From assembly GCA_008632985.1 (NCBI GenBank), contig QPGO01000167.1, forward strand, positions 1 to 64,000: a DNA stretch of 64,000 bases. Direction: 5' to 3'. The notes below the pieces were generated by a model. That model did not search any database, had not been told where the DNA came from, and saw nothing but the letters and a program-made list of their open reading frames with translations. Position numbers and translations under genes: made by a program. Source of the DNA: Psammoneis japonica. Taxonomy: Eukaryota. Positions 1,530 to 47,615 of the stretch are shown here, piece by piece (the first letter of the stretch is position 1; every line of letters starts with the position of its first letter).

Positions 1530-2155
1530 TTGCATTCAGCTCCCTCTGTATTTACCGCATTGTTGTCCCCGTCCACATATCTTACATACACACAGCACGA
1601 GGAACCAGAGGAGAGAGTTTCCAATCTCAATCAAAGGTGAACTCGGGCTCCGAGCAGCCACGGCGTTCCATTGGAATTTGGATTGTGCAACTTCAGCAGA
1701 ACCTGCCGCCGCATCTGGTCAACATTTGTGGCAAAATGGCAGATGTTGATCCAACATTTGTGATGGCATGGTGTCATCTCAAGGTGGCCACAGAAGCTGT
1801 GTCCCCCCCCCCCCCGTCCCCCCATTGCTCGTCACATGCGCACATTTCTGTGTGCATTCTTTTGCAAAATTGTTTCATGCTCCCTGTTTTGCAAAGCCAC
1901 AAAGGCTTTTTTCTGCACTTGTGAAAGCCAAAATTGGCTGGGTGTGTGTTCTTTGATGCACGCAAAACACAACCGGGCAAACTGGAAATGATGTGCTTCA
2001 AGTGTGGAAGAGCCTGTTCATTTGGGCTTGGCTCTGAGGCAACGAAATTTGTTTCCAACTCCCCACCTTGTCAAACATCTGGAGTTTGATGGCAGCACAA
2101 GTTTGCAAGGGGTGTGTGCAATTGCATCAAACCTGCAAAATGTGGAAAAGTTCAT
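1530..2155 (+). pseudogene. Decayed 5' part of an RI-type LRR gene, interrupted by a ~245-bp insert
   Basis: Colinear with the reverse complement of ~50680-51075 (SSEQPRRS..QNL..L.NIC....DPT, LGLAL.QRN.FP, AIASNLQNVE). Confidence 0.8.
1778..2023 (+). repeat. ~245-bp dispersed element, copy A, inserted in the LRR pseudogene
   Basis: Near-identical reverse-complement copy at 2901..3144. Absent from the intact LRR paralogue. Confidence 0.85.
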
Positions 2156-2900
2156 CCAAATGACCCACCATTGGGTGATTTGCAGAAGCTCTTAAAAGGC
2201 ACAATGTGAGAGTGATCCAATGTCTGTGTGGGAATGACCCCTTTCTGCTGACACCCCCCCCCCCCCCCACCCACACACACACACACTGGGAGAATCAAAA
2301 GCCTGGCAAAAGCAGGGTTGAAGATCTGCTGGTGCAACAGAGAAGTGGCACAAGTCATGACTGCCAGACAGACAGCAAAATGAACCTTGCTTTGTGGCGG
2401 GGCAACATGCTCTTTGGCTGATGAATCTCCTCTGCCTGTGCTCCTTGCACAAAACCTGTCAATGTTCTTGACAACCTTGAGTGCCATGATGCACCCACAA
2501 GCAACATCAAATGAGACAGCAGCTGGTTTGTTTGAAAAAACATGTCATCACCCACACTGTTGGCACTGTTCAGCCCAGTGAGCTGGGCCATGCAAAGGTC
2601 ATTGCAGCTGACATGTGCTCATTCACACACAGCCCCTTGTCAAGTGCAGTGAACTTGTCCTTGCAAATGTTGTCCTTCTTGATGCTGAAGTTGAGAGCAG
2701 TCCTGACAACACAGGTTTTGCAGATGCATCACATTGTTGCATGCCTTGAGTTTGCTTTGCTTGTTGAGCTGGCATGTTCCAGCCCTGAGTGGGGCTGTGA
2801 ACAACTTTGAGCCTGTGAAATTCTGCGCATGAGCTCCACAGCAAAAATGTCAGGCAATGAAAACATGAGTGATCACCAACAGAGAAAGAGACAATTTTGC

Positions 2901-3144
2901 AAATGAACAGGCTCCTCCGCACATTGAGCACATCATTTCCAGTTTGCCTGGTTGTGTTTTGTGTGCATAAAGAACACACACCCAAGCCAATTTTGGCTTT
3001 CACAAGTGCAGAAAAAAGCCTTTGTGGCTTTGCAAAACAGGGAGCATGAAACAATTTTGCAAAAGATTGCACACAAAAATGTGTGTGTGTGATGAGCAAT
3101 GGGGGGACAGGGGGGGGGGGCACAGCTTCTGTGGCCACCTTGAT
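2901..3144 (-). repeat. ~245-bp dispersed element, copy B (inverted)
   Basis: Reverse complement of 1778..2023 (AAGGTGGCCACAGAAGCTGTG-polyC...AGCCTGTTCATTT). Confidence 0.85.
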
Positions 3145-4555
3145 CTTCTTCAACAAATGTCAGCCAGCCCGCTTTTAGACTGCTGCATCTTTGCTTTTGG
3201 CCACAACAACGCTGGATCCAAAGTGGCTGTCAAATGCAAGACGTGCCTGCCTCAACTTGCAGCTGCGCCCATTTGTCCACCTGCGACAAAGTGTTTGCAC
3301 AACAATGGCCATCAGGCAGACAGGAGGTGCCAAGCACATGTGGGCGAACAAAGATCATGGTGCTGTTGATGTGACACAAAGGTCGTGGCACTGCACAACA
3401 TGCAAAAGAATTGCAAAAGTGCCCCCCAGCACTCTTTTGCATGCAGTCTTGCAGTCAGAGGCAGGATGCAGGCACAAGAAAATGGCAACGTTGTTTGTCG
3501 GCAATGCAAAGTTAAATTTTTGACGCTGTCTGCGGCGCACCAGAGAAGTCACCACTCACTTGACAATCAGCCCAACTCAGGTTGTTGGACAGATGACCCT
3601 TGTCTTCAACACAGCCAAAATGAGGACACAAGCAGAGCAGCGTGGTTGATGAAATGCAATGAGAGAAAGGCTGCAATTTGTTGGTGTCATGCAGCAACTG
3701 CATCGCGTCGATTGCTTCACAACAGTGCAGTGGCACCTGTGTTCAGCGCACCACAGGGCCCATCACAGACTCTCTGCTGCACTGGCCACTGGAGCAGAGT
3801 GCAGTTTTTTGAGGTCTGTGCTGCTGCAGCCTGTGCTCATGTCGAAGGCCAGACAGCTGGGCTTTCCCGTGCGTGCGTCGAGCGCGTTGCATCATGCAGC
3901 ACACGCTGCATGCCGTGTGTGCGTCATGCGCATTGCATCATGCAGCACACACTGCTGCATCATGCCAGCACCGCACCGCTGGCATGCATGCTGCGCAGTG
4001 CAAAACGGCACATTTGTTGGTCAGGCATCGACGCTGCTTGATGCCTCAGCCAAGTCATTGTTCGAGACAGTTTCTCAAGATGTTCCACCCAATTGGATGA
4101 CAGCAAACACAACACTTCGAAGGGACTGTCTGAAACAGTGATTCTGGGGGCACACACGCGATTTGGTGAGAAACGGCAGGTTGATCTGGTTGCCGCTTAG
4201 AGAAGGCTGTGGAGGGAGTTGGAAGCTCGGCCTTGCGCGGTGTGACCGCACGTTGAGTCTCGCTCACGAATCGTGATGATGACACTTTTCTTTTGTCACA
4301 ACGTTGACGACCGCCATGGTCCATTTGGGCAAAGAGGTGGATTTTACTAAAAAATGGCTCCTGCGTGATTTCTACGGCGTCCCCACGCTAAATGGGAACA
4401 GATCCGCGATTGCTTGGTCGTGTGCAGCACAATAGATGATGAGTCGCAGATTATTGGCACTGTCACCTTTATTGTTGAGTGCCACCCCCGGATGCCAAAC
4501 GCCATTTTCCCGGTTTGATTTTTTGTGATTTGTGGCTGTTCGACGAAACTGGAAG

Positions 4556-6479: not shown

Positions 6480-6584
6480 ACAACAAGATCCCGCATTTGT
6501 CGGTAAACTACAGTGGAAAGTCGGTTGCGATGAGATTATAACTTCATGTTGTCTGCTGATGAAGCATTGACAAACGTAAGAACA

Positions 6585-6776
6585 ACAGTTTTTGCAAAAA
6601 GAAAACCACGGTGTGTAAAACCAAACAAACCACGATTTTTCTGCCGACCGGGTCGTGCCTGAGTCTGTCGTGAGTTCAAAATTCTCCTCTGTTAAGGCAA
6701 GTAATCGAGAAGCAGCAGAGTTCAAGGGTGCCGACGATAATATCAGCACAATCAGAATATTCTGTATAAGCATCAT
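6585..6776 (-). pseudogene. Thioredoxin/PDI-like gene fragment
   Basis: Signal-like MMLIQNILIVLILSSAPL, then LTEENFE...WFVWFYTPWFSFCK, resembling WFVKFYAPWCGHCK with the first Cys lost. No continuation of the domain. Confidence 0.55.
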
Positions 6777-7099
6777 TATCAGCTTGGCGTTGTTGATAAA
6801 ACGGTACCACCAATTTCGATGAGACTTAGACTTGTCTTCGGTCTCCTTTTCCATTGATTAGCGTCCAACCAGGGCAGTTATTCAGCACAAAATCGAGACT
6901 ACTGTATTCAGAAACTCAAGACTTTTCAGAACTCCCCATGTGTTGATGATGTGCCGCTTCCCACTTTCCGCATTTCCAATCTGGTGTAATTAGCCTAGAA
7001 CGATAATCCATTTTCATACATTTTTGTGGGAGCATTTCCGAAATGCCGAACACTTGCCGAACCTTCTGCACTGTAGGGCAGGAATGACTTCCAGGCAGA

Positions 7100-10000
7100 A
7101 AGAGCACATTCACGTCAGCAACCATCACTCTCACCTGATGACGAAAAAAAAAAAAGGGTAAGGTGCCATGCACATGCATGTCACCTCCTGCCAAGCCTGT
7201 CACAATTCCTCACAAACTGCATCAATCCTCATTGCAACCATGACTGCCACCCTGCATCCTGACACTCTTCCTGATTCCCATGATGTTCCCTTGCTGCAGG
7301 CAACAAATGCTCTGCTCAAGGTGGCCCGTGTCACCCCTGGTGTCCTTTGTGCACCTGTCACTGATGAATCCATGCTGTGGTGTGCCCAGCACTGGCTCTC
7401 ATCAGGCTGATCTAGTTGCTGCTGCAAGGACTTGTTTGCTTGCTGTCCTGATTTAATGCCATCCATGAACCAAGTCGATGCAACCAGTGTCACACAACTT
7501 TTGGTGCTTGCACGCAGAACCAGCACCTCCATCCACAGAAGATGCAGCCAGTTGTTGTCTCCATTCCTGCACCTGCATGAGGCATCTCTGCATCTGATGC
7601 TGATGCCACACAGCACCCATGGATTTGCCCCATTAGATTGACACAAGAGCAGCAAACTGTCTCTTGGACATGGCTTTTGATGATCTAACAAGGAAATTGA
7701 CTGGTCCTGAGAGAGAAGCAGAGATGTCAGGAAAAGTCTGCTTTGGCGTCTTGTTCCAAGAGAAAGAGCAATGCCACAAGATCTTCCATGATTCAAGCAG
7801 ATGCAATGATGTTTGCAAAATTGCCATGTGATTCCTGGGAAGAGATGGCTTTTTAAATCAATGATTGTTGTTTGCAACAGCAGCTTCATCCCATTTCTCA
7901 AATCCGAGTGTCTCTCATTTGCCAGACATTTTGCTTCTGTGCCTGCACCAACTTGACAATGTTGATTTTTTGTCTGAGAAGTGTGGAAAATGTCATTGGC
8001 AAAATTTGTCCATGACAAATGGCGCGCACCAACAAGGGAGCAAAGAACAAGACACCAACCAAGAAAACAGCTGGCAAGAACAATCAGAAGCGCCTTGTGC
8101 AGCAGTGCAGAGTTGTGGCACACAAGAGAGTGTGGATTAAAAAAATGTGGAGCCTGCTAAAAAAAAGGAGCAGATTGCCAACTCAGAAAGGGCAGCAGAA
8201 GGAACTGGAAATCAGCAATGATGTTGAATCTGGACTGGGCAAATGCAAAACATTTGACAGTGTGGCTGATGCAATGAAGGCGTGGGAGATGATTGTGAAG
8301 ATTCGGAGGATGGAAGAATGCAACAGCAGCGGTGCTTTGCCTGAAGACAGCTGCACTTGCAGGTGTGATCATTTGTGAGTCAGATCCAGAGAATCTTTGT
8401 CTTTTGGAAATTGTGAGAGTTGCAGATGACAGTCTGCAGGTTTGGGAGCACCACAGATGCACCATGAGTCGTGCACAAATGTGACAATGCCGCTGGGTGA
8501 AAGGGTGACCCTGGCGCCAAGGTGGGTGCAATGCTCCAGCCAGCTGACACATTGATGGTGGCTCCAGTCAAAGCATTGCTGGGGCTGAAGCTGAAGGCTG
8601 CAGCAATGACCAGGTCCAGCCATGTTGCCTCTGCCTTTGAGCCAGTTGGTGGCTGCTGGCACAGTCTCACAAGCAGAAGCATGTTGCCAGCGGCCAAGGT
8701 GGCTTGTGTGGCATGACACTCAGCAGAGTGGGCGGCTCGGAGCTGGGCACTGAGTGCCATTGTCAGTGACAACAACTTGCGCAGGGAGTGCCAGAGAGGT
8801 GGTGGCCAGACTGTCTGCTGTTGCAGAGATGCCAAGCAACAGCCAGGGCAATGTTGTTGGAATTGAGGTCTGGACAAACACCACCACACTGCTTTGACAG
8901 CTGTGCTGACCAGATTGGAGCTGGAGAATGCCAAAAAGGCCAGAAATGGTCCCTCCAGAAGGAAGGCACCATCAAGAAAGTGGACAGCAGTCCATGACCA
9001 CACTTCTCAGAGAGAGAAAACAAGGCAGCCAGCAATGCAGAAGCGCCAGAAGCTGAAGCTGAAGCACCAGCGGTGATGAAAGAAAAGAACAAGATTGCTG
9101 CAGCTTCTTGAGTGCTTGCAGCCATGAGTGCTGCTTCTGCGGCATGCAAAATGCCTCTGAAGCAGCGTCACAAAAAAACAGACCCCGCCCCACTCACGCA
9201 TGGGGGGGCATGGACCACCATCTCCTGTTGGTCTCTGATCTGTGCCAAGGCAACATTGGGGAAGCACAACATCCAATCTGAGCAGGAGCTTGAGCTGTGG
9301 GACATTTGCAAGAATGACAAAGCCCTCATCATCATCTCCAATGATGAGCTGTTGGCAAGCCCCCTTTTTGTTTGTTGACACATGTTGAGTGCACCTCACT
9401 TGACAACACTGGCACCACCATCCAAGGGTGACAGAGCAGTCATTGAGCATTGCACTGCATGAGTTGACACAGATGACTCCCTCTGAGCTGAATCTTTGGA
9501 GGCTTGGAGAGACACCATTGGTGCATGCAGCTTGGCTCCAGGGGTGAAAACTTTGGATTTGAGTGATGATGGCACCATTTGTGTCACAGAACCTTTGGCC
9601 CTTGGTGCAGGCTGTTGGCTGCATTGTCAGGGCTGGGGGGCACCACTCAAATGTGCAATGCTCCAGTGCTTGTGTGGCATCACAGATGAAAGTGCAGCAG
9701 CTTTTTTCAGGGGCCAAAAATGAGAAAAGGGTGTTCCACTTGCATCTGTCACACAGCTCCATTGGCAGCATGTGCCAAAAATGAGAGATTTGGAGCACTG
9801 TTTGAGAGGAGCCCACTGTCTTCCAGCGGGCTGCAAGTTGCGAAGGCAACATGAGGAAATCCAGACATCTGGATGGCTGAGCCCTCCAGATGACACAATC
9901 TGACAGCTGTTGCTGCAGTGATCATGATGTGGAGGAGAGTCTTTTGTTTTGTGTGGTGCGAGTCTGGCAGCTCTGTGTGTGCACAGCAGATGAGCTCATT

Positions 10001-11100
10001 GGGAATGGTGCTGCCAAGTTGCTCTCCTTTTAATTGAATCCCAACAGTCACAACCAAGCTTGAAGAGGGAAAGCCAGATGGGTGGGAGACAAGGAGATGC
10101 TGCCTGGGGATGCTGTGTTGACCCCCACCATCTCATCGTCTGCACAAATCTGTCGCTGAAGGCAATCTCTGCACCTGGTCAAGCCACTTGCAATGCCAGC
10201 TGCAAGTGTTCTCCAGCCAAATTGGCTGGACATTAGAGGGGGCTTGTTCTGGAGTGCCATCACATTGCTGTCTGTTGTGATGAATTCTCACACCTCACGA
10301 GCCTGTTTTTGTGAGAGTCAGGTTCATCTGCGCAGGATGTGTCTGGTCCTTTTTGACCCTTTCCCCTCATTCTTCAACCACATTGTCTTCACAATCTAAG
10401 ACATGACATTGTCCATGTTGTTTTTGGAGATCTTGGTGGTGCAACTGCATTTCTGGGCTTTGCACTTGGTGAAATGAAGAGGTGGAGGATGGTTTGGCCG
10501 GGCACCTCACCTCCTCTTGGCTGCGCGGATGCCACAAACCACTGCTGGTGCCAGGTTCCATAAAATTTGGCAGAGTCACTCAGAACCACCTCTGGGAGCT
10601 CATGTGGTGAGTGTGCTGTGATGTGTGTCCTCATTGGTTCATTGTTGTGTGTTTCGTTCCACTCGCCACATTTGCACCGCCTTGCTTGCTTGTCAGCAGT
10701 TTGCCAGCACGGAGTGTCTGTGGCTGCTGCGAGAGCCACATGACATGTGTTCTTTGACAACATTTGTTCATTTGGGGAATCAGATCCTGGAGTTTTCATT
10801 GTCTGGTTGTGGACAAATGTGGAAGATGGAGTTTGCTGCAGCAGGCGAACGTGCAATTGCGCTGTGTCTCTCGACGGCAGAGTTGGCAGCGAGCGTGTGC
10901 ACATTGTCCCATGAGCACCAAACCAGCAGATGATGTGTTTGGATTTAGATGGCTCAATGGCTGTCATTGTTTGTTAGTCTGCCAGTGTTCATTAGAGTTG
11001 CGACTGTGTTGGAGCAACATCACATCATGGTCATGCCAGGTGCGGCACGGCGGTGGCACGGGCACAATGCGGTGGCCCTTCCGGACTTCTTTTGCGTGTT
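7100..11100. other. TpA-depleted decayed block 2, grading out towards ~12.1 kb
   Basis: Same dinucleotide bias as block 1. Confidence 0.85.
9245..9905 (+). pseudogene. Heavily decayed RI-type LRR gene copy
   Basis: Colinear with ~13975-14840, including 3' flank, with many indels. The stop TAG has become CAG (GAGGAAATCTAG vs GAGGAAATCCAG). Confidence 0.8.
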
Positions 11101-13493: not shown

Positions 13494-13885
13494 AACTTAA
13501 TCATCCAGTCGCCCTTCTACTATGGAGCTTTGCTGTTCAAGCTGACGAGCTTCATATTGAGAATGCTAGCAAGGATTGCGATTCGAATGGTACAACTGGA
13601 GACTGCAAGCTTCACTGCTTGTATCGGCGAGTGATGAAGGATCCCATAATAGTTGCCCCCTCTCAAATTGAGGAACTCGAAAAGCTCACGGCCAAACGGA
13701 TTGATCCAATTACGTGCAAACCGGATCATGGTGGAAGTCGTGTCAACAATGGAAAGCTCAAATTCAATAGACCCATCCAGACCACAACGGAAGCACACAA
13801 GGTTGTCTTTTACGAATGCGTCGACTGGCCGTCCAATCAGCAGAAAGATGCAAACTGGTCCAAGCGGTCGATGAATTATCGTGGT
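13490..13885 (+). pseudogene. Internally deleted copy of the alpha-CA-like gene
   Basis: ~13560..13615 matches 55..108 and 13626..13885 matches 962..1222. The region between is missing. Confidence 0.85.
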
Positions 13886-16749: not shown

Positions 16750-19700
16750 ACCAAAATGCAACTCCAGCCGACTAATGTCATTCTAATAAGAAGTTCCCGA
16801 CAAGTGTTGGGGTCGCAAGTGTTAGGTTTGGTTGGCAATGGAGATGTCACCAAAAATCATCCCTCGCACTTCCACGTGCAATGAAGGCGCCCCACGAAAA
16901 GTCAGCTCCATTTCCAAACACCCAGCACCATGAACAACACGTGCCTGTCACATTCTCGCAAGACACAAGTTTAAAGAGCAGGAGACCAACAATGCTCATG
17001 CCTCGGGTGTTTTGTGGCTCTAGCAGCAGGGGTCAAAGTCCAGCCAGTTCTTCAAAAAATTTTGAGTCGAGTGGTTCATGCGGGGTTCAAGACACGTGAC
17101 TCGGGGTGCGACGAACCCTTTCTCAACAAAGAGATGGCCAATGACATCAACACAAAGCACATTTTTATGGCAAAAGTCTTCTTTAAAATTCATTGTTGAC
17201 GTTGTGACAGCTGCGTTTGACCCGTTTCATGCTTTGTTTGAATGGACGAATCAATCCATGAAAACACATTTGCAAGCCACACTTTTCCATTTTCAGAATT
17301 GACGGTTGCATCTCTGCCAACAATCTGGTGAATGTACAAGCAAGGGGGCACTTCCATTGCCTGACTTTGTTCTTCTGCAGGAGAGCATCATCAACAGGCA
17401 ACTTTTTCAACGTTGTTTGACTGCTTCGTTTGAACAGTGCGCCAACTTCACTCTGCATTTTCACTCCAAAATCCACCCCATGCCCCACCCTCTCCCACTC
17501 AAAAACACTGGCTGATTGCATTGCAGTTGCTTTGTCAAAGTCTTGAAAAATGTTCCTCTTGTCATTGGCATCGCCAAAACGGGTTTGACGATGGGACTGC
17601 AACATTGGATTTGTCGATGAGCTCACACGACGATTGACACTGTGAAAATTGGCTGCATCTGCGTGACAGTTGAGTGAGACAACAAGTGGCAAGACTTTGG
17701 CACAATGACAACACCATTTTGATTCCATGTTGCTTGCCTTCACATGTCTGCCGGCTTTTGCTCTCAGCGGGTGTCGAAAATCCGGCGAATGAGTGGTTGA
17801 TGAAGACTCGGCACATGACATGGCGTCACAAATGACTGAATCGGCATGTTTGTCAACAGCTCGCCACAAAATCAAAATCGTTGAGAGTGCATTTAGATGC
17901 CTGTCCAACAGATGCCAATTGATCATGTGCCAAATGTGCTCTTGCAGAATCGAGGGTTTAGATGGCTTTCTTGGCGTCGCAATCCTCGCCATCGTCGGCG
18001 CAAGATTTGATCAAATTCCCCATGACAGCACCGCGGCGACAGTCTGTGTGCTCATCAGGAGTGCGCCTGCCATGCCCAATTGGATTTGCTTGAGGGTTGG
18101 GACCCAAACTGTGCACTTGGTTGTGTTGGGATGCATCATTGTTTTTTTTTCGGCACAGCTCTGCCAGCCACTGGCTGCTGTCAGAGAGCACAGGACTGCA
18201 CTGCAGAGGCGAATTCATTGATGCCTGCAATCAATTCAACGAACTAAACGAGATTTTGATGCTGCACAATGTCAGGCACACTTTTTTGTGGCCAACTTGG
18301 GCAAGGTTTGCTTTCAACCGCCACACAAGCACTGGTGTCGACTCTTGTCATTTCCATGGTTGCTTCTTCTGTGCTCCTCTGTGGCCTTCCTCTTCAGCAA
18401 GGAAGGTGTCGCCCCCAAGGTGATCCACTTGGCATGGCAGCAGCACATGGATTGGGCTTTCTTCCACTGGTGTCTGAGTCACACCTGGTCTGTGAAGCAG
18501 CAATGGCTGGGCACTCTGGGCACTGCACTCACCCCTTTGGTGTGCCAGCTGCTTTTGTTTGCTGCAGCAGCAGGAAATTTTTTGTCCTGCAGGGCTTTCT
18601 CTTGACTTTTCAAACTGTTGGACCCAAGCACAAACAATGCTGCCCTGTTGACAACTCCAAAAATGTTCTTGTGGGGCCCCAGAGTGCAGCAGCCTGGAAA
18701 ATGCCAAGCATCACATGTGGTTGTCTCGCTGCACACAGATGCTCCAACTTCACCTCAGCAGTCCACAAGGGCACAATTCACAAGTGAAGTGGGAACTTGC
18801 ACTGAGTGGAAAGCAAAAAATCACAAGGAAATGGATTTCTTGATGGGGTGTTTTGGGTGGATTTCCTGGTGAATGACTGGACAAGTGTCGCAGAGCAAAG
18901 TTGGAAGAAGTCAACAACAAAAAGCAGCTGTGTTGTTTCACAATGTGTGTCTTTTGGTTTTCAAACAAGTCATGGCAAAAACCATGCTTCAAAGTTTGTG
19001 AGTTTGTGCAAATGCTCAGCTGCCCATGTCTCTGTGGGTCATGGAGCTCCAGCCAGTCAGGCGAGTCCTTCCACCCTGCGTTGGAGGATGGAGCCACATT
19101 GCAGCTCTAAAAACATCACCAGAGTGTGCTCCTTCATGTTGGTGTGCAACCACAACAAGATGGAAAGACAAACATGCAGCCAGGCACTGTCAAAAAGAGG
19201 AAGCTGCAGCCAAAAGCTGCTCAAACTGAGGCCACACACACACACAGTGTGCAACAGAGCTGCACTTTGTCTGCCATGGACAGAGCCACCATGAGACCAA
19301 CCTGTTGTCATGCACCACAAGTTGGGTGGTTTCTTTTCTCTGTGTCATTTGAGAAAACAAGAATGGCGACATTTGTTTGCCACACACAACATCAAATGGT
19401 TTTGCAGAGCAACAATGGGCACAAACTCCTTGCTTTGCTTCCAAGAACCTCTGTGACAAAGAGAAAGTGTGGCTTGTTTGGCTTGGCCAACACAGCCACA
19501 AGCCCAAGTTTGCTGCTAAAAAACTGCTGCAAATGCTGTCATTCTCTCTGCAGCCAGCAGTGAAGGCATGTCAATTTGCAGCTTCACAAACATGTTTCAC
19601 ATGGTGGGAAAACAGAACAAATTCACAGCATCTGGGAGGGGCTGAGACATTGCTGCATGCCAGAAATGAGAGCAAGTCTTGTTGACTTGGAAACTGATGT

Positions 19701-37853: not shown

Positions 37854-38129
37854 TGACAGAAATTGAAGGCAAATGGCAAGAATTCAAACAACAACTCCTT
37901 GCTGCTGTCTAAATGGCAGATGAGTCTCCGCTCAGAGACTGTTGCAGGAGCCGAAAGATGTGTGAGTCGGCACAATCGGGCCACTGTTGTCATTCTTGTG
38001 AGCCTTGTGGCTCGAAAGCAAACTGCATCGCGTGCGAACGCGCGGAACTGAAGCACACAAAACTGTGCGCGGCAAACTAAACAGCGCGCAACATTTTGCG
38101 CGCACCCAAATCCTGTTCAAATCCTGTCA
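37854..38129 (-). repeat. 3' LTR
   Basis: 276 bp, preceded on the minus strand by the purine tract GGGGAG (38130..38135). Confidence 0.95.
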
Positions 38130-41100
38130 CTCCCCAGTTTGCTTGAGGAGTCACAGAAACAGATTTGACTTCGGATGAAATGAAGTTCCAGAACATGAGG
38201 GGGCGGAGAAGGTCCCAGATTTGGGAGCAACCCCAATGCTTGCTGAGGATGTCAGCAGGGTTGCGGGAGCCTTTGATGAAGTGGAGCTCAAGGCAACCAG
38301 AGGCAATTGCCTCACGCACACGGTGGAACGACAGTGCGGTGTGTCGCTTGTGTAACTTGGAGTGCGGGATGGTGGCACTGTCTACAACCGACTTGTTGTC
38401 ACCGAACATGTAACTGACATTACGGATCGGGACGCCAAGGTGGTGCAGGGTGATGCGCAGGTCAACAATCTGCTCGACACAAGTCCTTGCGGCAACAAAT
38501 TCAGACCCACAGGTTGCAGTCTCCACGGTGGCTTGCTTCTTAGAGAACCAATCAGCCGGGAATTTGTTGAGGAAGTGGAGCATTCCCATGACAGAGCGTC
38601 CGGTGAGCATGCAATGGCACAAGTTTGCATCGATGCAGTGGGTGGCAGTGACGAACTTGCCAAGGGGCGGTGGAGCGTCCTTCGGGATCATCTCTTCTGC
38701 TTCGCCGTACACGGAATGCATCCATTCACAGGCCGGAGCAGGGAGATCCGAGTGGTCGGGCTCTTCCGTGCGAACGCGGAGAGCACCGTGTCGCATCTTG
38801 GAGAGGTGCCCACAGACGCGTTTGGCATGATCCAAGTGGCCTTGACGGGGCGCAGCTCGGAAGCTAGAGAGTGACATGACGGCCGTGGCAATGTCAATTC
38901 GACCAAGGGACACTGCCCATTGGAGTGAACCAACAAGAGACTGGAACTTGTGAATGCCATCGGGTCCCAGCAGTTCGGAAGTGTCCAGTTCGGGGTGGTC
39001 ACCCTTCTCCAGAGGTGACAGGGCGTTGGTGGTGGGTTTCTCCCCAAACAGTCGGGCGCAGCTGTCAACCATGCGCTCGATGTACTTGCGCGGAGACAGG
39101 CACAAGGTTCCGTCGGGATCCCGGGAAAAGTCGCAACCCAGATGGAACTCAATGGGTCCCGCACCCTTGAGCTTGAACTTGTGCTTTTCCGTGAGAGCAT
39201 CGACGAAAGATTGAGGGTCCTTCATGGCAATGGCGAGGTCATCCACATAAACGGCAATGCATTCATGGTGGTCGCCGTTCCTGCGCATCCAAATGTCGGG
39301 TTAGGCGCGGCAGGGGAAGAAGCCTTCAGCTCGCAGGCAGTCGGCGAAGCGCTCATGCCAGCGGAGACCGGAGCTGTGCAGTCCGCACAGGGCCTTGTGG
39401 ATGACAAGGATGTGTCCTTCGAGTTTGCCAAATTCGGGTCCGACTGCAATGTAAAGCTTCTCCTTGGTGGTGGCTTCAAGGCAGGCATTGCCAATGTCGG
39501 TGGCCCATGTCTCCAACTCGTTGAGTTCGGCCAGGAAAATCATCAGCCGAAGGCCACGGAGGGAGACCACTCCGGAGCAGACACTGTCGATGGGTACGTC
39601 CGTGAGGTGCCCGTCGGCTACGAGTCGTGCCTTGTGGCGACCGTCGTGTTTCACGTCGCACACCAGGTGCACTCGGATCTTCTTGTGTCCCGCAGGAGGA
39701 GTGGAAGACTCGAAGGGCCCGCAGTCATGGAAGACTTCATGTTCGTCGAGTTGGTCCATCTCGAGATTAGTTGCGTCTCCCCATTTGCGGTTGCCGTTGC
39801 ATTTGTCTGGTGACATGGCATGCTTGCAGTTCCGGGGAACTTCGCACCCGCATTTGCAGCGAGGTGCAGTGTGGAAGGAGCGAAGCTTGGCTTGGTTGGC
39901 CATGCGAAATGGCTTCTTTTGGCGCCTCGCGATGGTGCGGAACCGCTTCCAGCCATCCGTGTTGAGGAGTCCGTTCTCTCATGCATAGATGGCGCAGGTG
40001 ACGGGGTCGTCCTTGGCGATGATGGCAAGAGGCTCGGACGTGATCTCCCCACTTTCCCATTCAAGCATGATGTTGTAGCTTGAGCCTTTCCAGGTTGGGT
40101 CGTGAGGCTTCAGAGGTCCTTCGTGTGACACGATGCGTCGAAATTTCCAAATGGTGGTGTCTTCGTCTTCTTGCTCAATGTGATTCATGATGTCATTGCA
40201 GGCAAGGACTTCCTCGCATTCGTCGTTGTTGACAGAGCAGACGAACTTGGTGAGCTCGGGATTGCCGTTCACTTTCCATTTGTGGTCTTCGACGGCCTTG
40301 ACGATGCGAGCTCTGTGGCGTTGTCCGTCCTCTTGTGGCTGCATGAGGAAGGTGCGTCCAATGATGTCTTGTGGATCGAAAACTGGCATCTTGGGTGTCC
40401 TGATCTCCCCATCAGGAGAATCGACGGGGTTGTCATCATGGCGAGATTTGATGTTGGGTTCAGGCAGGAAGGTGCGTCCAATGATGTCTTGCGGATCAAA
40501 AACTGGCATCTTGGGTGTCCTGATCTCCCCATCAGGAGAATCGACGGGGTTGTCGTCATGGCGAGATTTGATGATGGGTTCAGGTGGCTCCCCATCAGGA
40601 GGATCAAGACGTGGGTTTCGAACGGCAGGATCGGTGGTGGCGGAGCGGACGTTGGACCGGCAGAGGATCTTCTGGGTCTCGTCAGAGAGAATCTTGAAGG
40701 TCATCTGGTGGCCGACGTGCTCAGCAATGCCAACGAAGCGTCCACGCAACTCACGGGATTCGGACGGCCAATCGGAGTCATCGAGGTGGAAGTGCATGGG
40801 TTCCCACCAGTGAAAGCGAAGCAATGGGCTGATGTCCGGGGTGGAGCCAGTGAGAGTCTCGAGGGGCGTGCGCCAGTGGAGACGTGGGGACGCTGCATGG
40901 TTGAGTGTGAAGCACACACACATGAGCGCCAGCAGCCATGTGTGGGCGGGCGAACCAAAACGATCCATGACAGTGTTCGCCATGCGCTTCACGGTCTGGC
41001 ATCGACGCTTGGCACAGTTTTGGTGTTGCTGGTGAGGCTCACTTTGCCAGCTGGAGATGAAGAGGGCCCGCAGGATCCCGAGCACTTTGTTGCTGATCTC

Positions 41101-43866
41101 AACTTGAGCACGGTCGCCAATGAGTTTGGATGGGGTGCCACGCTCACGGATCTGATCCTCGAGTGTGTTGACAAACTCTTTGTCCGTCTTGGTGCTGCAG
41201 ACGTCAGCGACGGTAGACTCGGTGCCAACAAACAGTTGGGCACTGGTGCAACCAGAGTCGACGGCCGGGGTGTCGGCACAAACGGTGTCAGTGGCGACAG
41301 GCTCGTTGCGGCGGTGCACATTAAGGGTGGGGTTGGGTGATTTGCAGGCCTTCCTAAGGTGTGCACCGGCGGGCATGCGGGCGCACTGCATGGTGCAGTC
41401 AAAAGTGCGACGGACCACATCGGCAGGCAGGAAGCCAAAGTGAGGCCGAAGAGACTCGAAGGGCGGGTCCTTGGGCTGTACAGTGCACTCCGGGGGTGGG
41501 ACGTCATCGTCCTTGGGGTCAATTGCGTGTAGATGACACTCGCAGAACACGTTGTCGTCCGGAATGAGGTGATCATTGAGGGCGGACGCGTGATCGGCAG
41601 ACAAGGAAGCAGACATGATGGTCTCGTTGACAATGACACGATGACGGCAGTTGCCGCATTCGTCAAACAGGTTGGCAGTGGGATCGTCCTGCAGGTCAGA
41701 GATCGCGTCGCACCACTGGTCGTCGTCAGCGACAGAGTGATCGAGGATGGAAGGATCCCATGTGCCATCACCGGTGAGGATGACATGGGGCAGGGTGTCC
41801 CATTCGGCGTCAGTGCAAGGTCGCATGGCAACACAAGGCAGGCCGGCCTTGATGTCAATGGGGATGACACAGCCATCAGGAGTGGCAACACGTTGCAAGC
41901 CGTTGGGCACCTTGACAGAGCGATCGTTGACATCCTGTTTGTGCCATTCGAGCTGGCCGCAGGAATGGATGGTCTTGCCCTTTCCCGTGCATGCGCACTG
42001 ATGGAGGATGGCGATGACGGGACCACGCTGGGTCTCAATGACGGCACCAGCGGTGACAATGGGGATGTCCACCATTTGATGGTCGTCAATGCCCTGAACG
42101 TCAACTTGGCGAGAGGTGCGTGCAATGACGTGAACGTCGTCGCCAGCAATGCCACCGTTGGCCCCACGATCGACTGGAGTGCCAGTGCGTGTGGAGCGAT
42201 GAGCAGAGGCAGAGCAAATGACATTGTGGTTGTTGATGCGGCGGCAAGTGCGGCCGTTAAGTTCCATGTCATCGGCAGAAGCTGGCGGGGTAGAGGGGGC
42301 GACGGATGGCCCCGGTCGACTGGCATTGGGGGCTTGGTTAGGAGACAACAGATGGTGCAGATCACCGGGTGGCAGTGGCTTGCGCTTGGTGAGGTGCACC
42401 AGGATGGGATCATCCGAAGTGGCACCCACATTTGGAGCGGAGTCACCAGAGTCAGCAGGAGTCGTGTTGGACAAGTTGACATCACCGTCACTCCCAAGGC
42501 GTTGGTCGTGAAGGTTGGCCGTAACGGACTCATGGCAGTTGCTGTCTCGCGGGTTGCGGGGAGGCGGACGAGAATGCTCAAGGATGATCGCCTTGGAGGA
42601 ATGGGGCAATGAATCCCAAATCCGTTGGTGGTCGGGAGGGAGACGTTTCCATTGGTCACCGGCGAGGCTGGGACCACGGGTGTGGGCAGCATTGGCCTGA
42701 AGGACGTCAATGTCACTGTCAATGTCACAGAACACATCGTCGGACGGTTCCTCGGAGCAGACGTCGTGTGCGCACATGGCGCGGCGGGGAGCTCGAGGTG
42801 TTGTCTTGGGTTGAAACGCACTGTCGCATTGGGCTGCTGCGGAGAGGAGCAAGCCACAGCATTGATCGCATGTGAGGCTCTTGCCACTCTGCGTACGATG
42901 CTGATCAGCTTGGCTCTTGACAGCATGGAGTTCCTCGACAGGGTGCACGGCATTCTCGAGCATGACGCGCTTCTGTCCTTCAGAGAAGTGGTCACTGGCC
43001 GGGATGAGTGCCTCGCACTTGCGCAACTGGTCTTGCCAATGAAGGATGAACCCGTGGGTCGGACCTTTCCAAGTGCCATCACCAAGACGTGCGGTGGCAA
43101 GGTACGTCAGCAGGGTGGAGGACTCGACAGATGCGCGGGTGGAGGCGAGCGCGCACTCAGACAAGGCGCGGCAGATGGTCTGTGCATCAGAAGACCCCAC
43201 ATTTTCGCGGATGAGAGCCTTGCCCTTGTCGGTGAGAAGGATGCGTTCGAAGACGGCGAACACGCACTTTTGCTGTTCAGCAAAGAGCAGTTTGTCTTCG
43301 GGGCTGGTCGGTTTGTACGACGAGTCTAGAATGCACTCGACGTCTTGGGCACGGGCTTGTGCCACAAGTGAGGTGTGCCAAGTGTGCCACTGCTTGTCAG
43401 ATTTGAGAGCCGTGAAAGCGGTGGGATCACGCTTGATGCCTCGCTTGAAGTCCCGCACCGGGTCGCGTGCCTTGGTCGGGTTGGTGACATGCGGAGGTGC
43501 GAGGGGTGAGCTGCCAATGGACACAGAAGACATGCAGTCGGGGCTGAGGCGGCAGGCAAGGAACTCGTCATGCGTGAACAACGAGAAGTCATTGGCAACG
43601 TCAAGACCTTTGTGTGCTTTGACAATGTACAGACTGGCTAGAGCTGCTGACATGTTCTCACAACCACGGGGCAAAGGGATCACATTAGTGCCGTTGTCGC
43701 ACTCAAGCGAGTCGATTTGGGATGGTGTGAATGCGAATGGTTCTTGATGCGAGTCCGTGCCATCTTGTGCCAAAGCCAAACTGAGAGGGCTCCAAGCACC
43801 TTGGGCAAGCACGGTTCCAACAACATGCTCGAAACCATCGGTTTGTTGCTGACGAGTGAGAACCAT
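38077..43866 (-). pseudogene. gag-pol polyprotein, one frame with two premature stops (39979..39981, 39301..39303)
   Basis: Protease VDRGANGG; integrase TDTV..D, DRAQ, QSEPHQQHQN; RT HKARLVA, YVDDL; RNase H DANL, SEFVA, GDNKSV, NPADILSK. The three track ORFs share one frame. Confidence 0.93.
40346..40585. repeat. 120-bp in-frame tandem duplication in the IN-RT linker
   Basis: IKSRHDDNPVDSPDGEIRTPKMPVFDPQDIIGRTFL occurs twice. Confidence 0.92.
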
Positions 43867-44789
43867 GGTGGACAAAAGTGGTGTCAGGACAAGCAATTCT
43901 TGTTGGGAAGCGAAGGCAGACTTGAAGCTTGGGTGAGAGCAGACTTGACTTGAAACAGACTTGACTTGAAATCTTGAACTGTCTTGAAATCAGAAGTCGC
44001 CGGGCTTTGCTGTCCCGTTCGTTGTCAAGTGCCAAACTTCCCATCCGGTCCGCAGAATTGTGCCGGCACGTCCGAACCCGCAGCCAGCGGCGCTTTGGGT
44101 TGCTTGCGAGCAGAGCAGCGGGTTGTAAACCCCTGCAGGTGAGCTGACCAGAGGTGGACAAGACCCCCGAACCGTTCTTGTTTTATGTCGGTTGGATTTC
44201 CCGATCAGGCTGGCCAGTTGACGCAGGCGTTGGGCGCTGTGGACGAACGAACAAACGCGGGGAAAGCACCCTCGCCCCAACGTGGGCTGCAATCACGGCT
44301 GCTTGCTCTCACAGTCGTCCTCGTGGACCTGGCAGAACTGCAGAGCACCAGCAGTCCGGGGTAGATCAGGTGCAATGGACTCGGTGTGCTTGTAGAGTGG
44401 CAGCAAAACCGCAGTCCGAAGAGTGGGTGCAGGTTCTTGGCCGTGAAGACATGCACACATGCACATGTCTTCAGCGACGAAGATCCTTGAACATGTGGGG
44501 TTCTTGACCGTTGACCGATGAGCAGGTGCATCAAGGGATGAGGATCAAGGACAGACTTGGACATGACCGTTGAATGCATGTCTTCAGTGACCAAAGGCAG
44601 CACAATCAATCCAGATGTCCAGCGGCAAGGAGACTTGACGGTGACGTTAACTTCCTGCCGATGCCCTGGCATTGAATGTGCGCAGACTTGCCCGTGCATG
44701 TAGAACACATGCGGAGGTCCACGCAGAATTGAAGTGGCATCGTTGGTAAATCAACGACGACGATGGCGGTTGCTCAATGGGTTGACAAT

Positions 44790-44806
44790 GAGCAAGACTG
44801 TTAATC
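44790..44806 (-). promoter_or_regulatory. Putative primer-binding site
   Basis: GATTAACAGTC directly abuts the 5' LTR. Its complement GACTGTTAATC resembles a tRNA-Asn(GTT) anticodon arm. Confidence 0.6.
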
Positions 44807-45082
44807 TGACAGAAATTGAAGGCAAATGGCAAGAATTCAAACAACAACTCCTCACTGCTGTCTAAATGGCAGATGAGTCTCCGCTCAGAGACCGTTGCAG
44901 GAGCCGAAAGACGTGTGAGTCGGTACAATCGGGCTACTGTCATCATTCTTGTGAGCCTTGTGGCTCGAAAGCAAACTACATCGCGCGCGAACGCGCGGAA
45001 CTGAAGCACACAAAACTGTGCGCGGTAAACTAAACAGCGCGCGACATTTCGCGCGCACCTAAATCCTGTTCAAATCCTGTCA
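44807..45082 (-). repeat. 5' LTR
   Basis: 276 bp, colinear with the 3' LTR without indels. Confidence 0.95.
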
Positions 45083-46959
45083 CAGAGCATGACCTGGCAT
45101 GCTGGTGGTCCTGGCAACAGGAGCCAATCCTCAAAATGTCATTGCAGGGTGTTTTTGGTGCAAGCAACCAGTCAACCTGCCCTCTGTGCAGTTTCCACAG
45201 GTTCAAAAACAAAGAGAATGTCAGCAAGGTCATGACTGTGAAGGCCAAGATGATGATGAGTGTTGGCACACAGATGAGTGCACAGGAGGGAGGGGTGAGA
45301 CAGATGGGGAGGAGGAGGTTGACAATTTAGAGGCTGTCACCCCCATCCCAGTCAAATTACAACCTTCCTGACTTCCATGTTTCCAAGGAAGAAATTCTTG
45401 TTTGTTTGTTGGAGCTGGTGCAGTTGAACACTGCAAACAGCCAGTTGCCTTCTGACACACACAGATGGTGTGAAGTGGCAAGGCAAAGACTTGCAGATTC
45501 AGAATGAATTGTTGGAGACCAGGGGGGTGGCATTGGAAGGATGCTCCAAATGCTGCAAAACCTGATCACAGAGACAATGATCAATTGAAATGGCAAGTGC
45601 CTCTGTCTTTTTTTTAGTTGGCGTCATTCTGAGATTGTGGTGGCATCTTGACCTGCGGATCTCGACTTTTTCCAAGAACAACCGGACAACTGCGCACTGC
45701 ACAAACACAAATCGACAATTCGCAAAACATTGCAGACTGCAAAAGAAACACATGAATGCTCACAAACAAAATGCAGTCACTGCTGAAATGACAATTGTTG
45801 CTGGGTGTGAACTCTGCTTTGTGCCGCCACAAAAGGTGCCACTGTAGAGTCCGCCTTGACTGTCGTCAGGTGATGCACAACAGACCGATGCATTGCAATT
45901 GTGCTCTCCAGTGTGACCAAATTGGCCGCTTCTTCTTCTTCTCAATGAGACACTTGATGTTGCAAAAGAATGAGTGCAGATGTCATCTGTCCAGTCAATG
46001 GAACAGTCTGACGTGGCGGAACATGAAACTTTTCCAGTTGAGCTGCCATCTTCAAGAACAATTTCAACAGATCTCGAATCGCATTTTCTGGCACACTCTA
46101 AGAGGGTGCTGCCAACGGCCTCCCCACAGCAGATGAGGTCACCCTCCATTGGTTCTCCAGCCGGTGGATCTTCCAATTCATTCCACATTTTCGAAAAACA
46201 ATGAGGCAAGGCAAGTTTGTGAAGCTGTGTGCGATTCAAGCAGCTCATCTGCGGTGCTTGTCAAGCATGTGATGAACAACAATGCAAGAGGAGATGCGTC
46301 ACACGACTTGCCTCACCGCAGCTTTTTTCAAGCTCACAAGTGATCTGGTCGGATTGTTGCAAGCTGCAAAACAAGTCTCCCTGGTGTTCACCATGCTGCC
46401 GCAACAATTTGCAGTGACGCCACATCCAATTGGCTCATGTGTGTTGGCATCAAATGGACCAAGCAGGTGAACATGGCCTTTGTTCACTTGGGTGTGATGG
46501 CAAACATCTCCTGGAAAGGTCACCATGTTGCCAGCCACCTTTGCCACTTGCTCAAAATCTTTCTGGCTGGCTGATGCAGAACAGCCTCAGCTTCTTTGAC
46601 ACTGCCACGCACTTTTGGATGTGATGCATGCTGTTGTTGAATTGTGTCGACTTCTCTGTTTTCACAGCCACAATTGCATTAAAAAAACCTTTGCTTTTGT
46701 TGACTCAGGTTGACATGCTGTGCAGTGTGCAGTGCTGCACCCGACACAGCTTGCCATGTCATGCAAGAAACCCTCCCCAGATGTTGGGAGATGATCTTGT
46801 GCGGCGCAACTGGTGGGAAAATTCACTTGCCATGCAAAAGGCCAAAGCAGAAGACCACAACATGTGAGCAATGAAATGTGTGAAGCAACTGACATTTTCA
46901 ACATGCCTGTCCATTGCAGCGACTCTGTTGAGAGACAAGCGACCCCACAATGAAACCCT

Positions 46960-47615
46960 TGTTAAAGCAAATTGCACTGTGCAGTGCGTTTTGAATTCCT
47001 TGACAAGTTTTTCAATTGCCTCCAGAGACATTGCATCTTGATTGATCTCTTGAGAGATGTCAGGCTGTGAAAGAACCATGCAAGCACCACAAATGTGCCA
47101 TTGAGCACGTTGAGAAAACTTGCAGATTCTCTTGGTGGCAAGCACATTGGCGCAGACAATGACTCTCGCACCCCCTCTTCTTGTTCTTCTACCAACAAGG
47201 TTCCTTCCATGGTGGTCAAGACATTGGCACACACAGTTGCAGCCAAGACTGCATCTTCTTCTTGATTTACCAACAGCTCCTTCATGGCAGCTGCCACGGC
47301 ACCGAGTCGCAATGAACAAGGATTGTTCTTTTTGTTCTTGGAGGATTCAATCAAATCATCAAAAACTTGAGAAAAAAAACTGTCGGAAGAATCACCATCA
47401 TTGTGTGGATCCACCCACATGCTGTTTTTGTCACTGACAGCTTTGGTGACAACTTGTGTGCCGCACAATGGAGAGTCTTAATTTGGCACAATTGACAGAG
47501 TGTCAGTTTGTTTCTCAACAGCAAATGTGAAATGGTTTTGTTGGTCTTCATTTTTTTGTTGCGAGAGCACCAACAAGTGGCTGTCAGAAATGGTGGATGG
47601 CTGACTGACATGATC
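46960..47615 (-). pseudogene. Decayed duplicate of the RRP12 5' end and upstream region
   Basis: DDLIESSK.KKNNP.SLRLGAVAAAMKELLVN..EEDAVLAATV matches ~35230-35495. Upstream motifs match ~35555-35672. Confidence 0.9.

What the first reader, a model, noticed from the sequence alone, without database searches (positions are those of the whole stretch)
7100..11100. Sequence-context preference: surviving TpA sits in TTA/TAA
Residual TA in the depleted blocks lies mostly in TTAA, TAAA, TTTA or ATTAG (e.g. ~2193, 3453, 7454, 7854, 8138, 10031), and both LTRs retain CTAAA. In the polyprotein Y->C looks more common than Y->H. Both observations fit A->G being favoured in TAY and disfavoured in TAA. That would be an enzyme fingerprint and argues against a plain WA/Pol-eta spectrum.
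Basis: partly seen in the sequence, partly recalled or inferred. Interest (0 to 1): 0.7.

Follow-up and report, generated by a model that had tools for sequence, protein, structure and literature searches.

The report
Neighbour rule of TpA-erasing mutator
In this alga-like genome, mobile DNA has had most of its TA steps rewritten to TG or CA after insertion, and the rate depends on the neighbouring bases (fastest before C or T, slowest next to A/T runs), which gives a fingerprint for finding a still unknown DNA-mutating defence enzyme.

Summary
Confirmed and quantified. Window 7100-11100 keeps 15 TA where 246 are expected; 13 of 15 are YTAR, against 16% outside the blocks. In 40 copies of the window's copia element, 261 TA-derived sites read TA 3285, TG 2700, CA 3917, CG 14 times. 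A>G is 2.3-fold faster in TAY than TAR (CI 1.9-3.0); a second repeat family gives 2.2-fold. Amendments: TAG is nearly as slow as TAA; T at -3 or A at +2 halves the rate on both strands; the sense strand is hit 1.3-fold more in coding DNA. Tyr>Cys beats Tyr>His 1486:550, and strand bias alone predicts only 57% Cys against 73% seen. Pol-eta is disfavoured mainly because AA>AG stays at background (0.17% against 33% for TA) and about 99% of changes are transitions. LTR pairs differ, so mutation follows insertion. Best reading: DNA adenine deamination, enzyme unidentified. TpA hypermutation is published for Bigelowiella natans, without a flank rule in the text I read. The +1 pyrimidine preference matches TadA-derived editors, not reported ADAT2/3 preferences. 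The scan already noted this rule at least 8 times elsewhere in this genome.

The parts
7100..11100 (.). TA-erased block of the finding; a mosaic of decayed repeats. TA survivors at 7159, 7413, 7454, 7634, 7686, 7854, 8138, 8158, 10031, 10234, 10397, 10561, 10946, 10975, 10993
   Evidence: 15 TA vs 246 expected, 56 CG vs 253; 13 of 15 survivors lie in the slowest quarter of predicted rates
9250..9913 (.). Decayed pieces related to the LRR-type genes at 13771-14796 and 49787-51019
   Evidence: 64-74% DNA identity; none of the 12 aligned TA of the TA-bearing paralogues is TA here: 9 TG/CA, 3 other
10274..11075 (.). 0.8-kb dispersed repeat; partly repeated in the tandem duplication 11497-12330
   Evidence: 80-95% matches on other contigs. 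In the duplication 5 TA of the second copy are TG/CA in the first (GTAC, CTAC, GTAC, ATAT, ATAT), while the 5 YTAR sites are kept
37854..45083 (-). Ty1/copia LTR retrotransposon used for the mutation spectrum
   Evidence: RVT_2 matches; 277-nt LTR pair, 95% alike; 39 further copies fetched
37854..38130 (-). 3' LTR; CTAAA kept at 37910
   Evidence: TA kept in 184 of 599 site-copy pairs
44807..45083 (-). 5' LTR; CTAAA kept at 44863; relatively protected
   Evidence: TA kept in 349 of 599 pairs; rate x0.51, CI 0.33-0.78
38077..43989 (-). Polyprotein frame with stops at 39301 and 39979 boundaries; Tyr codons changed to Cys or His
   Evidence: 71 in-frame Tyr sites; window copy 50 Cys, 11 His, 10 Tyr
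16840..18106 (.). 1.26-kb dispersed repeat of unknown class, used as independent replicate
   Evidence: No Pfam match; natural TA-rich and TA-poor copies exist; window copy keeps 7 of 70 reference TA
1561..4380 (.). Other TA-erased block, with a long inverted repeat (1800-1942 / 2982-3124); survivors at 2193 and 3513
45090..49680 (.). Other TA-erased block; includes a decayed duplicate of part of the gene at 33509-35560

Best explanation
A locus-targeted process acts on integrated repeats as DNA and changes the A of 5'-TA-3' to G, on either strand, most likely by deaminating adenine to hypoxanthine, which is then copied as G. SHOWN: strict TpA target; transitions only; one hit per step (TG or CA, almost never CG, because the first hit destroys the target); action after insertion; a two-layer neighbour rule. 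Layer 1 picks the strand: a pyrimidine 3' of the A makes it 2.3-fold faster. Layer 2 sets the rate of the whole step: T at -3 or A at +2 halves it on both strands; A at -2 raises it about 1.5-fold. Slowest hexamers are TTTAAA, TCTAAA/TTTAGA; fastest are AATATC, GATATC. Modest rate differences become large survivor biases once about 90% of TA is gone. INFERRED: deamination chemistry; an enzyme working on duplex or only locally opened DNA (neighbouring hits are not strand-coordinated); recruitment to silenced, CpG-methylated chromatin (TA loss tracks CpG loss between copies, comes in 200-400 bp patches, spares the 5' LTR). Odds: rule is real 0.93; deamination 0.6; rule reflects the mutator itself rather than repair or chromatin 0.6; enzyme has a TadA-like pocket 0.3.
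For: 261 sites in 40 copies: TA 3285, TG 2700, CA 3917, CG 14. Competing-risk model on 224 sites, 8317 site-copy cells, site bootstrap: TAY/TAR x2.35 [1.91-2.95], -3T x0.53, +2A x0.53, -2A x1.47. Holds in non-coding DNA (+1C x2.7; +1T x1.65, CI spans 1), in the CDS and in three subfamilies separately, unfiltered and with one copy per subfamily, x2.0-2.8 over 40 draws. The TAY strand is changed more often whether it is sense (80 of 95 untied sites) or antisense (23 of 28). Replicate family with natural TA-rich references: x2.19 [1.56-3.22]. The copia-trained model predicts survival there, 43% to 8% across quartiles, AUC 0.73, and the survivor spectrum of old blocks, Spearman 0.89 against -0.19 for uniform loss. 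AA>AG singletons 40 of 23045, GA>GG 54 of 35027. LTR pairs discordant at 294 of 599 site-copy pairs. DDE transposase loci are depleted too. Same TpA>TpG/CpA spectrum seen de novo in B. natans.
Against: No enzyme found: the genome has an ordinary, unexpanded set of CDA-fold deaminases; its TadA-like protein begins with a hydrophobic, signal-like stretch (by eye), so it may be plastid-bound. The model leaves much site-to-site variation and under-predicts CTAA and TTAA survivors by 1.6-1.8-fold. The -4T effect did not replicate (x0.57 vs x0.97), and -3T and +2A were equal in the copia family (ratio 0.98) but not in the replicate (1.55). TadA-derived editors also edit CA, which is untouched here. 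The link to CpG loss (rho 0.70) may only reflect copy age. Copies were the 40 best-scoring of 485 candidates.
Confidence: 0.6

Rival explanations
1. The lesion forms at any TpA alike, and the neighbour rule comes from repair (hypoxanthine glycosylase, endonuclease V, mismatch repair) or from DNA shape and nucleosome placement near A/T runs. It would then fingerprint repair or chromatin, not the mutator. Compatible with deamination chemistry.
For: -3T and +2A act on both strands alike in the copia family (ratio 0.98), as a duplex property would. Loss comes in patches: autocorrelation 0.11-0.19 up to 200 bp against a null of 0.05-0.07. The 5' LTR is protected with the same sequence as the 3' LTR.
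Against: The +1 pyrimidine effect is strand-specific (x2.1 in both families after removing the mirror term), as expected of a direct contact. A strand-specific repair enzyme could still do this.
Confidence: 0.25
2. An error-prone polymerase (Pol-eta- or Pol-iota-like) fills gaps in repeats and inserts G opposite T only after a T primer end; the +1 effect is mismatch extension.
For: WA is the known A/T hotspot of somatic hypermutation (PMC6423074, passages). Patches of 200-400 bp resemble repair tracts. A weak sense-strand bias exists, x1.30 [1.07-1.54] in the CDS.
Against: AA is not hit above GA (0.17% vs 0.15%, against about 33% per strand for TA); 6617 TG/CA states against 43 other ungapped states among the 12 commonest; neighbouring hits show no strand coordination (autocorrelation -0.04 to 0.00, null 0.00 +/- 0.01-0.03). 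That Pol-eta hits AA strongly and makes many transversions is recalled, not from a call.
Confidence: 0.12
3. TpA, a palindromic step like CpG, carries a modified adenine (for example 6mA) in silenced repeats, and this base is deaminated or miscodes, as 5mC does at CpG.
For: Palindromic target, both strands alike, no strand coordination; co-variation with CpG decay; all-or-none between copies of the 1.26-kb repeat (8 of 20 copies TA-rich).
Against: TA loss is about ten times CpG loss in the same copies (26-84% vs 1.4-11%). 6mA pairs as A and eukaryotic 6mA is mostly at ApT (recalled). No methylation data were examined.
Confidence: 0.1
4. ADAR- or ADAT-type RNA editing of element transcripts, fixed by reverse transcription.
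For: U at -1 is the shared preference of ADAR and fungal Tad2/Tad3; slight sense excess.
Against: Both strands are hit nearly equally; the two LTRs of one insertion differ at 294 of 599 pairs, 81 of them in opposite directions; DDE loci and host-gene duplicates are hit; fungal editing favours A/G at +1.
Confidence: 0.02
5. Artefact: codon avoidance of TAA/TAG/TTA/CTA in the baseline, selection, shared ancestry of copies, or base-calling error.
For: The outside baseline is gene-rich; subfamilies exist; direction varies with codon phase.
Against: YTAR share is 16% outside, 16% among copia TA-derived sites and 23% in TA-rich repeat copies, against 57% in survivors. The synonymous term is x1.20 [0.93-1.59] and leaves the effect unchanged. 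One copy per subfamily gives the same result. A public-run contig agrees with the block.
Confidence: 0.02

Closest known systems
TpA hypermutation of integrated NCLDV and virophage DNA in Bigelowiella natans (bioRxiv 10.64898/2026.01.13.699255; read parts 1-3 of 5 plus term search; figures not seen, supplements closed)
   Same: Only TpA>TpG/CpA transitions, both strands, DNA level, foreign or mobile DNA, patchy activity; TpA-poor CDS there are enriched for DDE and reverse-transcriptase domains.
   Different: Other lineage; here transposons and gene duplicates dominate and up to about 90% of TA is lost. The text has no flank analysis ('context', 'trinucleotide', 'diatom': 0 hits). It proposes ADAT2/3, whose reported preferences do not match the +1 pyrimidine rule.
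TadA-derived deoxyadenosine deaminases of adenine base editors (ABE7.10, ABE8e-YA; PMC10188366, PMC12528748, passages)
   Same: A>G in DNA; ABE7.10 favours YAY and disfavours AAA; ABE8e-YA ranks YAY above YAR.
   Different: Engineered, work on single-stranded DNA in an R-loop, accept CA as well as TA; the process here ignores CA and shows no strand-coordinated runs.
Eukaryotic ADAT2/ADAT3 (fungal Tad2-Tad3 mRNA editing, PMC11156358; amphioxus BjADAT2 on DNA, PMC10354150; passages)
   Same: Adenosine deamination; U at -1 in fungi; BjADAT2 can act on DNA.
   Different: Fungal editing favours A or G at +1; BjADAT2 prefers GAA on DNA and also deaminates C in TCG. Neither matches.
Repeat-induced point mutation (RIP) of filamentous fungi (recalled; search listings only)
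   Same: Heritable, dinucleotide-specific mutation of repeats on both strands after insertion.
   Different: RIP is C>T, mainly CpA>TpA, and creates TpA; this process runs the other way.
Pol-eta WA mutagenesis in somatic hypermutation (PMC6423074, passages)
   Same: A>G at TA.
   Different: AA is not hit here and transversions are nearly absent.

Membership tests
B. natans-type TpA hypermutation | Changes confined to TpA | tested here: met
   About 33% per strand at TA against 0.17% (AA) and 0.15% (GA); CA at most about 0.15%, from a pooled tally
B. natans-type TpA hypermutation | Almost only A>G / T>C transitions on both strands | tested here: met
   TG 2700, CA 3917, 43 other ungapped states among the 12 commonest
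B. natans-type TpA hypermutation | Acts on integrated foreign or mobile DNA, spares ordinary genes | tested here: met
   LTR pairs discordant; blocks 137 TA in 26.7 kb against 1498 in 37.3 kb
B. natans-type TpA hypermutation | Ongoing de novo hypermutation, about 1000-fold above background | not testable with these tools
   Needs mutation-accumulation lines; only one sample's contigs were available
B. natans-type TpA hypermutation | Same enzyme or same flank rule in both lineages | not testable with these tools
   The preprint's mutation table is in closed supplements; enzyme unknown in both
Pol-eta WA mutagenesis | AA mutated as well as TA | tested here: not met
   40 of 23045 AA; with subfamily variants included AA 0.99%, CA 0.97%, GA 0.60%, TA 34%
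Pol-eta WA mutagenesis | Substantial A>T and A>C share (recalled) | tested here: not met
   At TA: A>G 2421, A>C 9, A>T 7
TadA-type DNA deaminase signature | YAY preferred over YAR | tested here: met
   TAY/TAR x2.35 and x2.19
TadA-type DNA deaminase signature | CA edited as well as TA | tested here: not met
   CA at background in the copia family; 4.6% in the replicate is confounded by CpG decay in the reference copies
TadA-type DNA deaminase signature | A nuclear TadA-fold enzyme with DNA activity | tested here: inconclusive
   One TadA-like gene (L162, E=6.6e-39, 133 bits under the 150 cut-off) and one ADAT2-like gene (L165); no expansion; location and activity untested
ADAT2/3-type editing | Purine at +1 (fungal) or GAA context (amphioxus DNA) | tested here: not met
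   +1 C/T x2.5-2.6 over A, +1 G x1.2; GA at background
Fungal RIP | C>T at CpA producing TpA | tested here: not met
   CpA>TpA 0.16%; polarity from Tyr codons and TG/CA exclusivity
APOBEC-like kataegis on long single-stranded DNA | Strand-coordinated clusters | tested here: not met
   Strand residual autocorrelation about 0 at all distances from 1 to 3200 bp

The most novel reading that the evidence does not exclude
The genome encodes a natural deoxyadenosine deaminase that works on double-stranded, silenced chromatin, reads the TpA step as a duplex hexamer, flips out the A that has a 3' pyrimidine, and is shared across distant algal lineages as an A-to-G counterpart of RIP. Its preference would point away from canonical ADAT2/3 to an unrecognised enzyme with a TadA-like pocket, a natural double-strand adenine editor.
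Probability: 0.3. Interest if true: 0.9.

Novelty: new variant of a known kind. Interest (0 to 1): 0.6.

Why it matters
No enzyme is known for TpA hypermutation. A quantitative flank rule turns the search into a direct test: a candidate enzyme, or a knockout, must reproduce strict 5' T, about 2.3-fold for a 3' pyrimidine and about 0.5-fold for TNTA/TANA. The rule already argues against plain Pol-eta, RNA editing and the reported ADAT2/3 preferences. It also predicts the flanks of the 231 de novo mutations in the B. natans hypermutable regions, which would show whether the process is shared between the two lineages. A natural DNA adenine deaminase would matter for genome defence, for dating algal transposons and for base editing.

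Tried and rejected
Strand-coordinated clusters: none. Strand bias as sole cause of Y>C: predicts 57% Cys against 73% seen. TAA-only protection: TAG is nearly as slow. A -4T effect: not replicated. Testing the rule on the 0.8-kb repeat inside the finding: 6 copies, too few sites, no clear trend. Pfam identification of frames in 7200-10973: no significant family. Candidate enzyme by family search: PF00383 gave 9 matches (dCMP deaminase, TadA-like, ADAT2-like, RibD-like by eye, two other nucleoside-deaminase-like), PF14437 gave 5 of the same; no expansion. PF14428 (DddA-like) gave no match, but the control rang nowhere, so this says nothing. ADAR/ADAT1, 6mA methyltransferase and Y-family polymerase families were not searched. 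Spreading into flanks: flanks of the insertions are TA-poor throughout (0.6-1.8 per 100 bp), but without pre-insertion alleles spreading cannot be told from insertion into already erased DNA. No RNA holder listed. Literature: searches listed no paper on TpA erasure in diatoms or on its flank rule; one search gave the one preprint. The library lacks most subscription journals, and the preprint's figures and supplements were not visible.
Full report
Setting. The window is the first 64 kb of contig C166 of a 91-Mb assembly. It alternates gene-bearing DNA with blocks that have lost almost all TA. That the organism is a diatom comes from earlier scan notes and my impression of its genes; I did not test it. 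Eight blocks cover 26.7 kb and hold 137 TA; the other 37.3 kb hold 1498.

Check of the observation. Window 7100-11100 has 15 TA against 246 expected and 56 CG against 253. Thirteen of the 15 are YTAR and 14 contain TTA or TAA. Five of six quoted positions are right; 3453 should read 3513. In 94.6 kb of deeply depleted DNA (six window blocks without the copia element, plus flanks of the fetched insertions) 192 of 334 TA are YTAR (57%). The baselines are 16% outside the blocks, 16% among TA-derived sites of the copia family and 23% in TA-rich repeat copies, so codon avoidance does not explain it. TTAA is enriched 5.7-fold, CTAA/TTAG 4.1-fold; ATAT falls to 0.04. A 6.1-kb contig of a public run matches 4400-10450 with one difference; the run may be the assembly's own sample, so this speaks against base-calling error only.

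What the block is. It is a mosaic: pieces related to the window's LRR-type genes (9250-9913), a 0.8-kb dispersed repeat (10274-11075) and low-copy matches elsewhere. It is too old and too low in copy number to give rates, so I measured them on the copia element at 37854-45083.

Direct spectrum. I fetched all 39 other copies among the 40 best-scoring of 485 candidates; this selection favours likeness to the window copy. At 261 TA-derived sites the 40 copies read TA 3285, TG 2700, CA 3917 and CG 14 times. CG is nearly absent because the first hit on either strand removes the target. Singleton A>G changes are 40 of 23045 at AA and 54 of 35027 at GA, against about 33% per strand at TA; CpG decay is 3.3%. 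With subfamily variants included, on 30 partial copies, AA is 0.99%, CA 0.97%, GA 0.60%, TA 34%, and TA gave 2421 A>G, 9 A>C and 7 A>T. The two LTRs of an insertion differ at 294 of 599 site-copy pairs; of 226 pairs changed in both, 81 went in opposite directions. So much of the mutation came after insertion. The 145 same-direction pairs may reflect context or changes made before insertion; I cannot separate these. DDE transposase loci and host-gene duplicates are depleted as well.

The neighbour rule. I fitted a competing-risk model: each strand's A has its own rate, with terms for copy, region, strand and flanks, and intervals from resampling sites. I dropped 12 sites of doubtful polarity, 25 sites in TATA runs and 26 subfamily-fixed cells, leaving 224 sites and 8317 cells. 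Relative to A at +1, C is x2.63 [1.96-3.63], T x2.49 [1.77-3.60], G x1.18 [0.83-1.62]; TAY/TAR is x2.35 [1.91-2.95]. T at -3 is x0.53, A at +2 x0.53, A at -2 x1.47. The result holds without filters and with one copy per subfamily, and in three subfamilies and the CDS separately; in non-coding DNA +1C holds (x2.7) and +1T is weaker (x1.65, interval includes 1). A model-free sign test agrees: the TAY strand is changed more often at 80 of 95 untied sites where it is sense and 23 of 28 where it is antisense; symmetric classes show no significant skew, 33:24 and 20:15. T at -3 on one strand is A at +2 on the other, and the two terms are equal in this family (ratio 0.98 [0.77-1.34]), so this layer slows the whole step; the +1 term chooses the strand (x2.1).

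Replication. The 1.26-kb repeat at 16840-18106 has natural TA-rich copies (8 of 20 examined), which serve as references. Eleven of 12 depleted copies were used; one was too diverged. YTAR survives in 134 of 270 counts and RTAY in 52 of 368 (each site counted on both strands); at YTAY sites the TAY strand wins 161:80. The fit gives TAY/TAR x2.19 [1.56-3.22], -3T x0.46, +2A x0.30, -2A x1.59; -4T does not replicate and the -3T/+2A symmetry is less exact (ratio 1.55). The copia-trained model predicts survival in this family (67 of 155, 46 of 162, 17 of 155, 13 of 156 by quartile) and ranks the ten tetramer classes of old-block survivors (Spearman 0.89; uniform loss -0.19), though it under-predicts CTAA and TTAA by 1.6-1.8-fold. 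Thirteen of the finding's 15 survivors lie in the slowest quarter of predicted rates; TCTAAA, kept in both LTRs, is among the three slowest hexamers.

Y>C against Y>H. Over 71 in-frame Tyr sites the copies give 1486 Cys and 550 His, the window copy 50 and 11. Strand alone predicts 57% Cys, context alone 63%, both 69%; 73% is seen. Where the antisense strand is TAR the ratio is 749:179; where both strands are TAY it is still 636:335. So a sense bias contributes (x1.30 [1.07-1.54] in the CDS, x1.12 [0.91-1.37] outside) but does not suffice. Direction also varies with codon phase; the synonymous term is x1.20 [0.93-1.59] and does not change the context terms.

Clues to mechanism. Neighbouring hits in one copy are not strand-coordinated at any distance, which argues against long single-stranded tracts. 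Hit versus spared sites do cluster over 200-400 bp beyond a permutation null. The 5' LTR keeps TA in 349 of 599 pairs, the 3' LTR in 184. TA loss (26-84% per copy) correlates with CpG loss (1.4-11%), rho 0.70, which may reflect age or shared targeting; DNMT5 methylates transposons in Phaeodactylum (PMC9998398, abstract). I read this as many independent hits on duplex or briefly opened DNA in silenced chromatin. Deamination is inferred from the transition-only outcome.

Comparison with what is known. An earlier scan note led me to bioRxiv 10.64898/2026.01.13.699255. I read parts 1-3 of 5: de novo TpA>TpG/CpA hypermutation of integrated viral DNA in Bigelowiella natans, with ADAT2/3 proposed. 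'Diatom', 'trinucleotide' and 'context' do not occur in its text; its Figure 2B and supplements, which I could not see, may show flanks. TadA-derived editors favour YAY and disfavour AAA (PMC10188366) or rank YAY above YAR (PMC12528748) (passages), matching the +1 rule, but they also edit CA. Fungal Tad2-Tad3 editing favours U at -1 and A or G at +1 (PMC11156358) and amphioxus ADAT2 prefers GAA on DNA (PMC10354150); neither matches. WA is the Pol-eta-linked hotspot (PMC6423074); its AA rate and transversion share are recalled. The process works like the B. natans one and meets the three features I could test; shared enzyme is untested. It works like RIP in purpose, with the opposite chemistry.

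Candidate enzymes. The genome holds one TadA-like gene with a signal-like N-terminus, one ADAT2-like gene and other ordinary CDA-fold genes, with no expansion. Nothing singles out a mutator.

Earlier scan notes. At least eight notes on other pieces of this genome report the same survivor rule, including TYTA/TARA. I saw them after fitting the model, and they are unchecked, so I count them as neither support nor discount.

Verdict. It is a new variant of a recently described kind: a quantified, replicated flank rule for a TpA-specific A>G process whose enzyme is unknown. Interest 0.6.

Noticed in passing
window 44350-45083 against 37854-38130: The 5' LTR and adjoining leader lose far fewer TA (40-46%) than the rest of the copia element (57-80%), although the two LTRs share one sequence; CpG loss shows only a weak dip.
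   Followed up: partly
window 16840-18106 and loci L121-L139: Copies of this repeat are mostly either untouched (56-82 TA) or nearly erased (1-27 TA), with one intermediate; this suggests a locus-level switch.
   Followed up: partly
flanks in loci L061-L099: Almost all copia insertions lie in DNA that is already TA-poor, lowest within 300 bp of the ends: either insertion into erased regions or spreading.
   Followed up: partly
window 1541-2148, 9250-9913, 47178-47634: Decayed duplicates of host genes (LRR-type family; the gene at 33509-35560) have lost TA and CG while the paralogues in the same window keep them, so the process is not limited to transposons.
   Followed up: partly
window 40346-40584: A 120-bp in-frame tandem duplication in the window's copia copy that the other aligned copies lack.
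   Followed up: no
window 10529-12330: A 0.95-kb tandem duplication spans the block's edge; the copy nearer the block has 5 more TA>TG/CA and 7 more CG>CA/TG changes.
   Followed up: partly
G000 C512 against C166: Contig C512 repeats this part of the window at about 100% identity, probably an assembly duplicate or second haplotype.
   Followed up: no
window 9924: The only difference between the window and the public-run contig over 6 kb is A>G at a CpA.
   Followed up: no
window 60170-61501: Nine 129-bp tandem repeats inside an 854-aa frame on the minus strand.
   Followed up: no
L162:1327-2055: Bacterial-type TadA homologue with a signal-like N-terminus, possibly the plastid tRNA-Arg editor.
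   Followed up: partly
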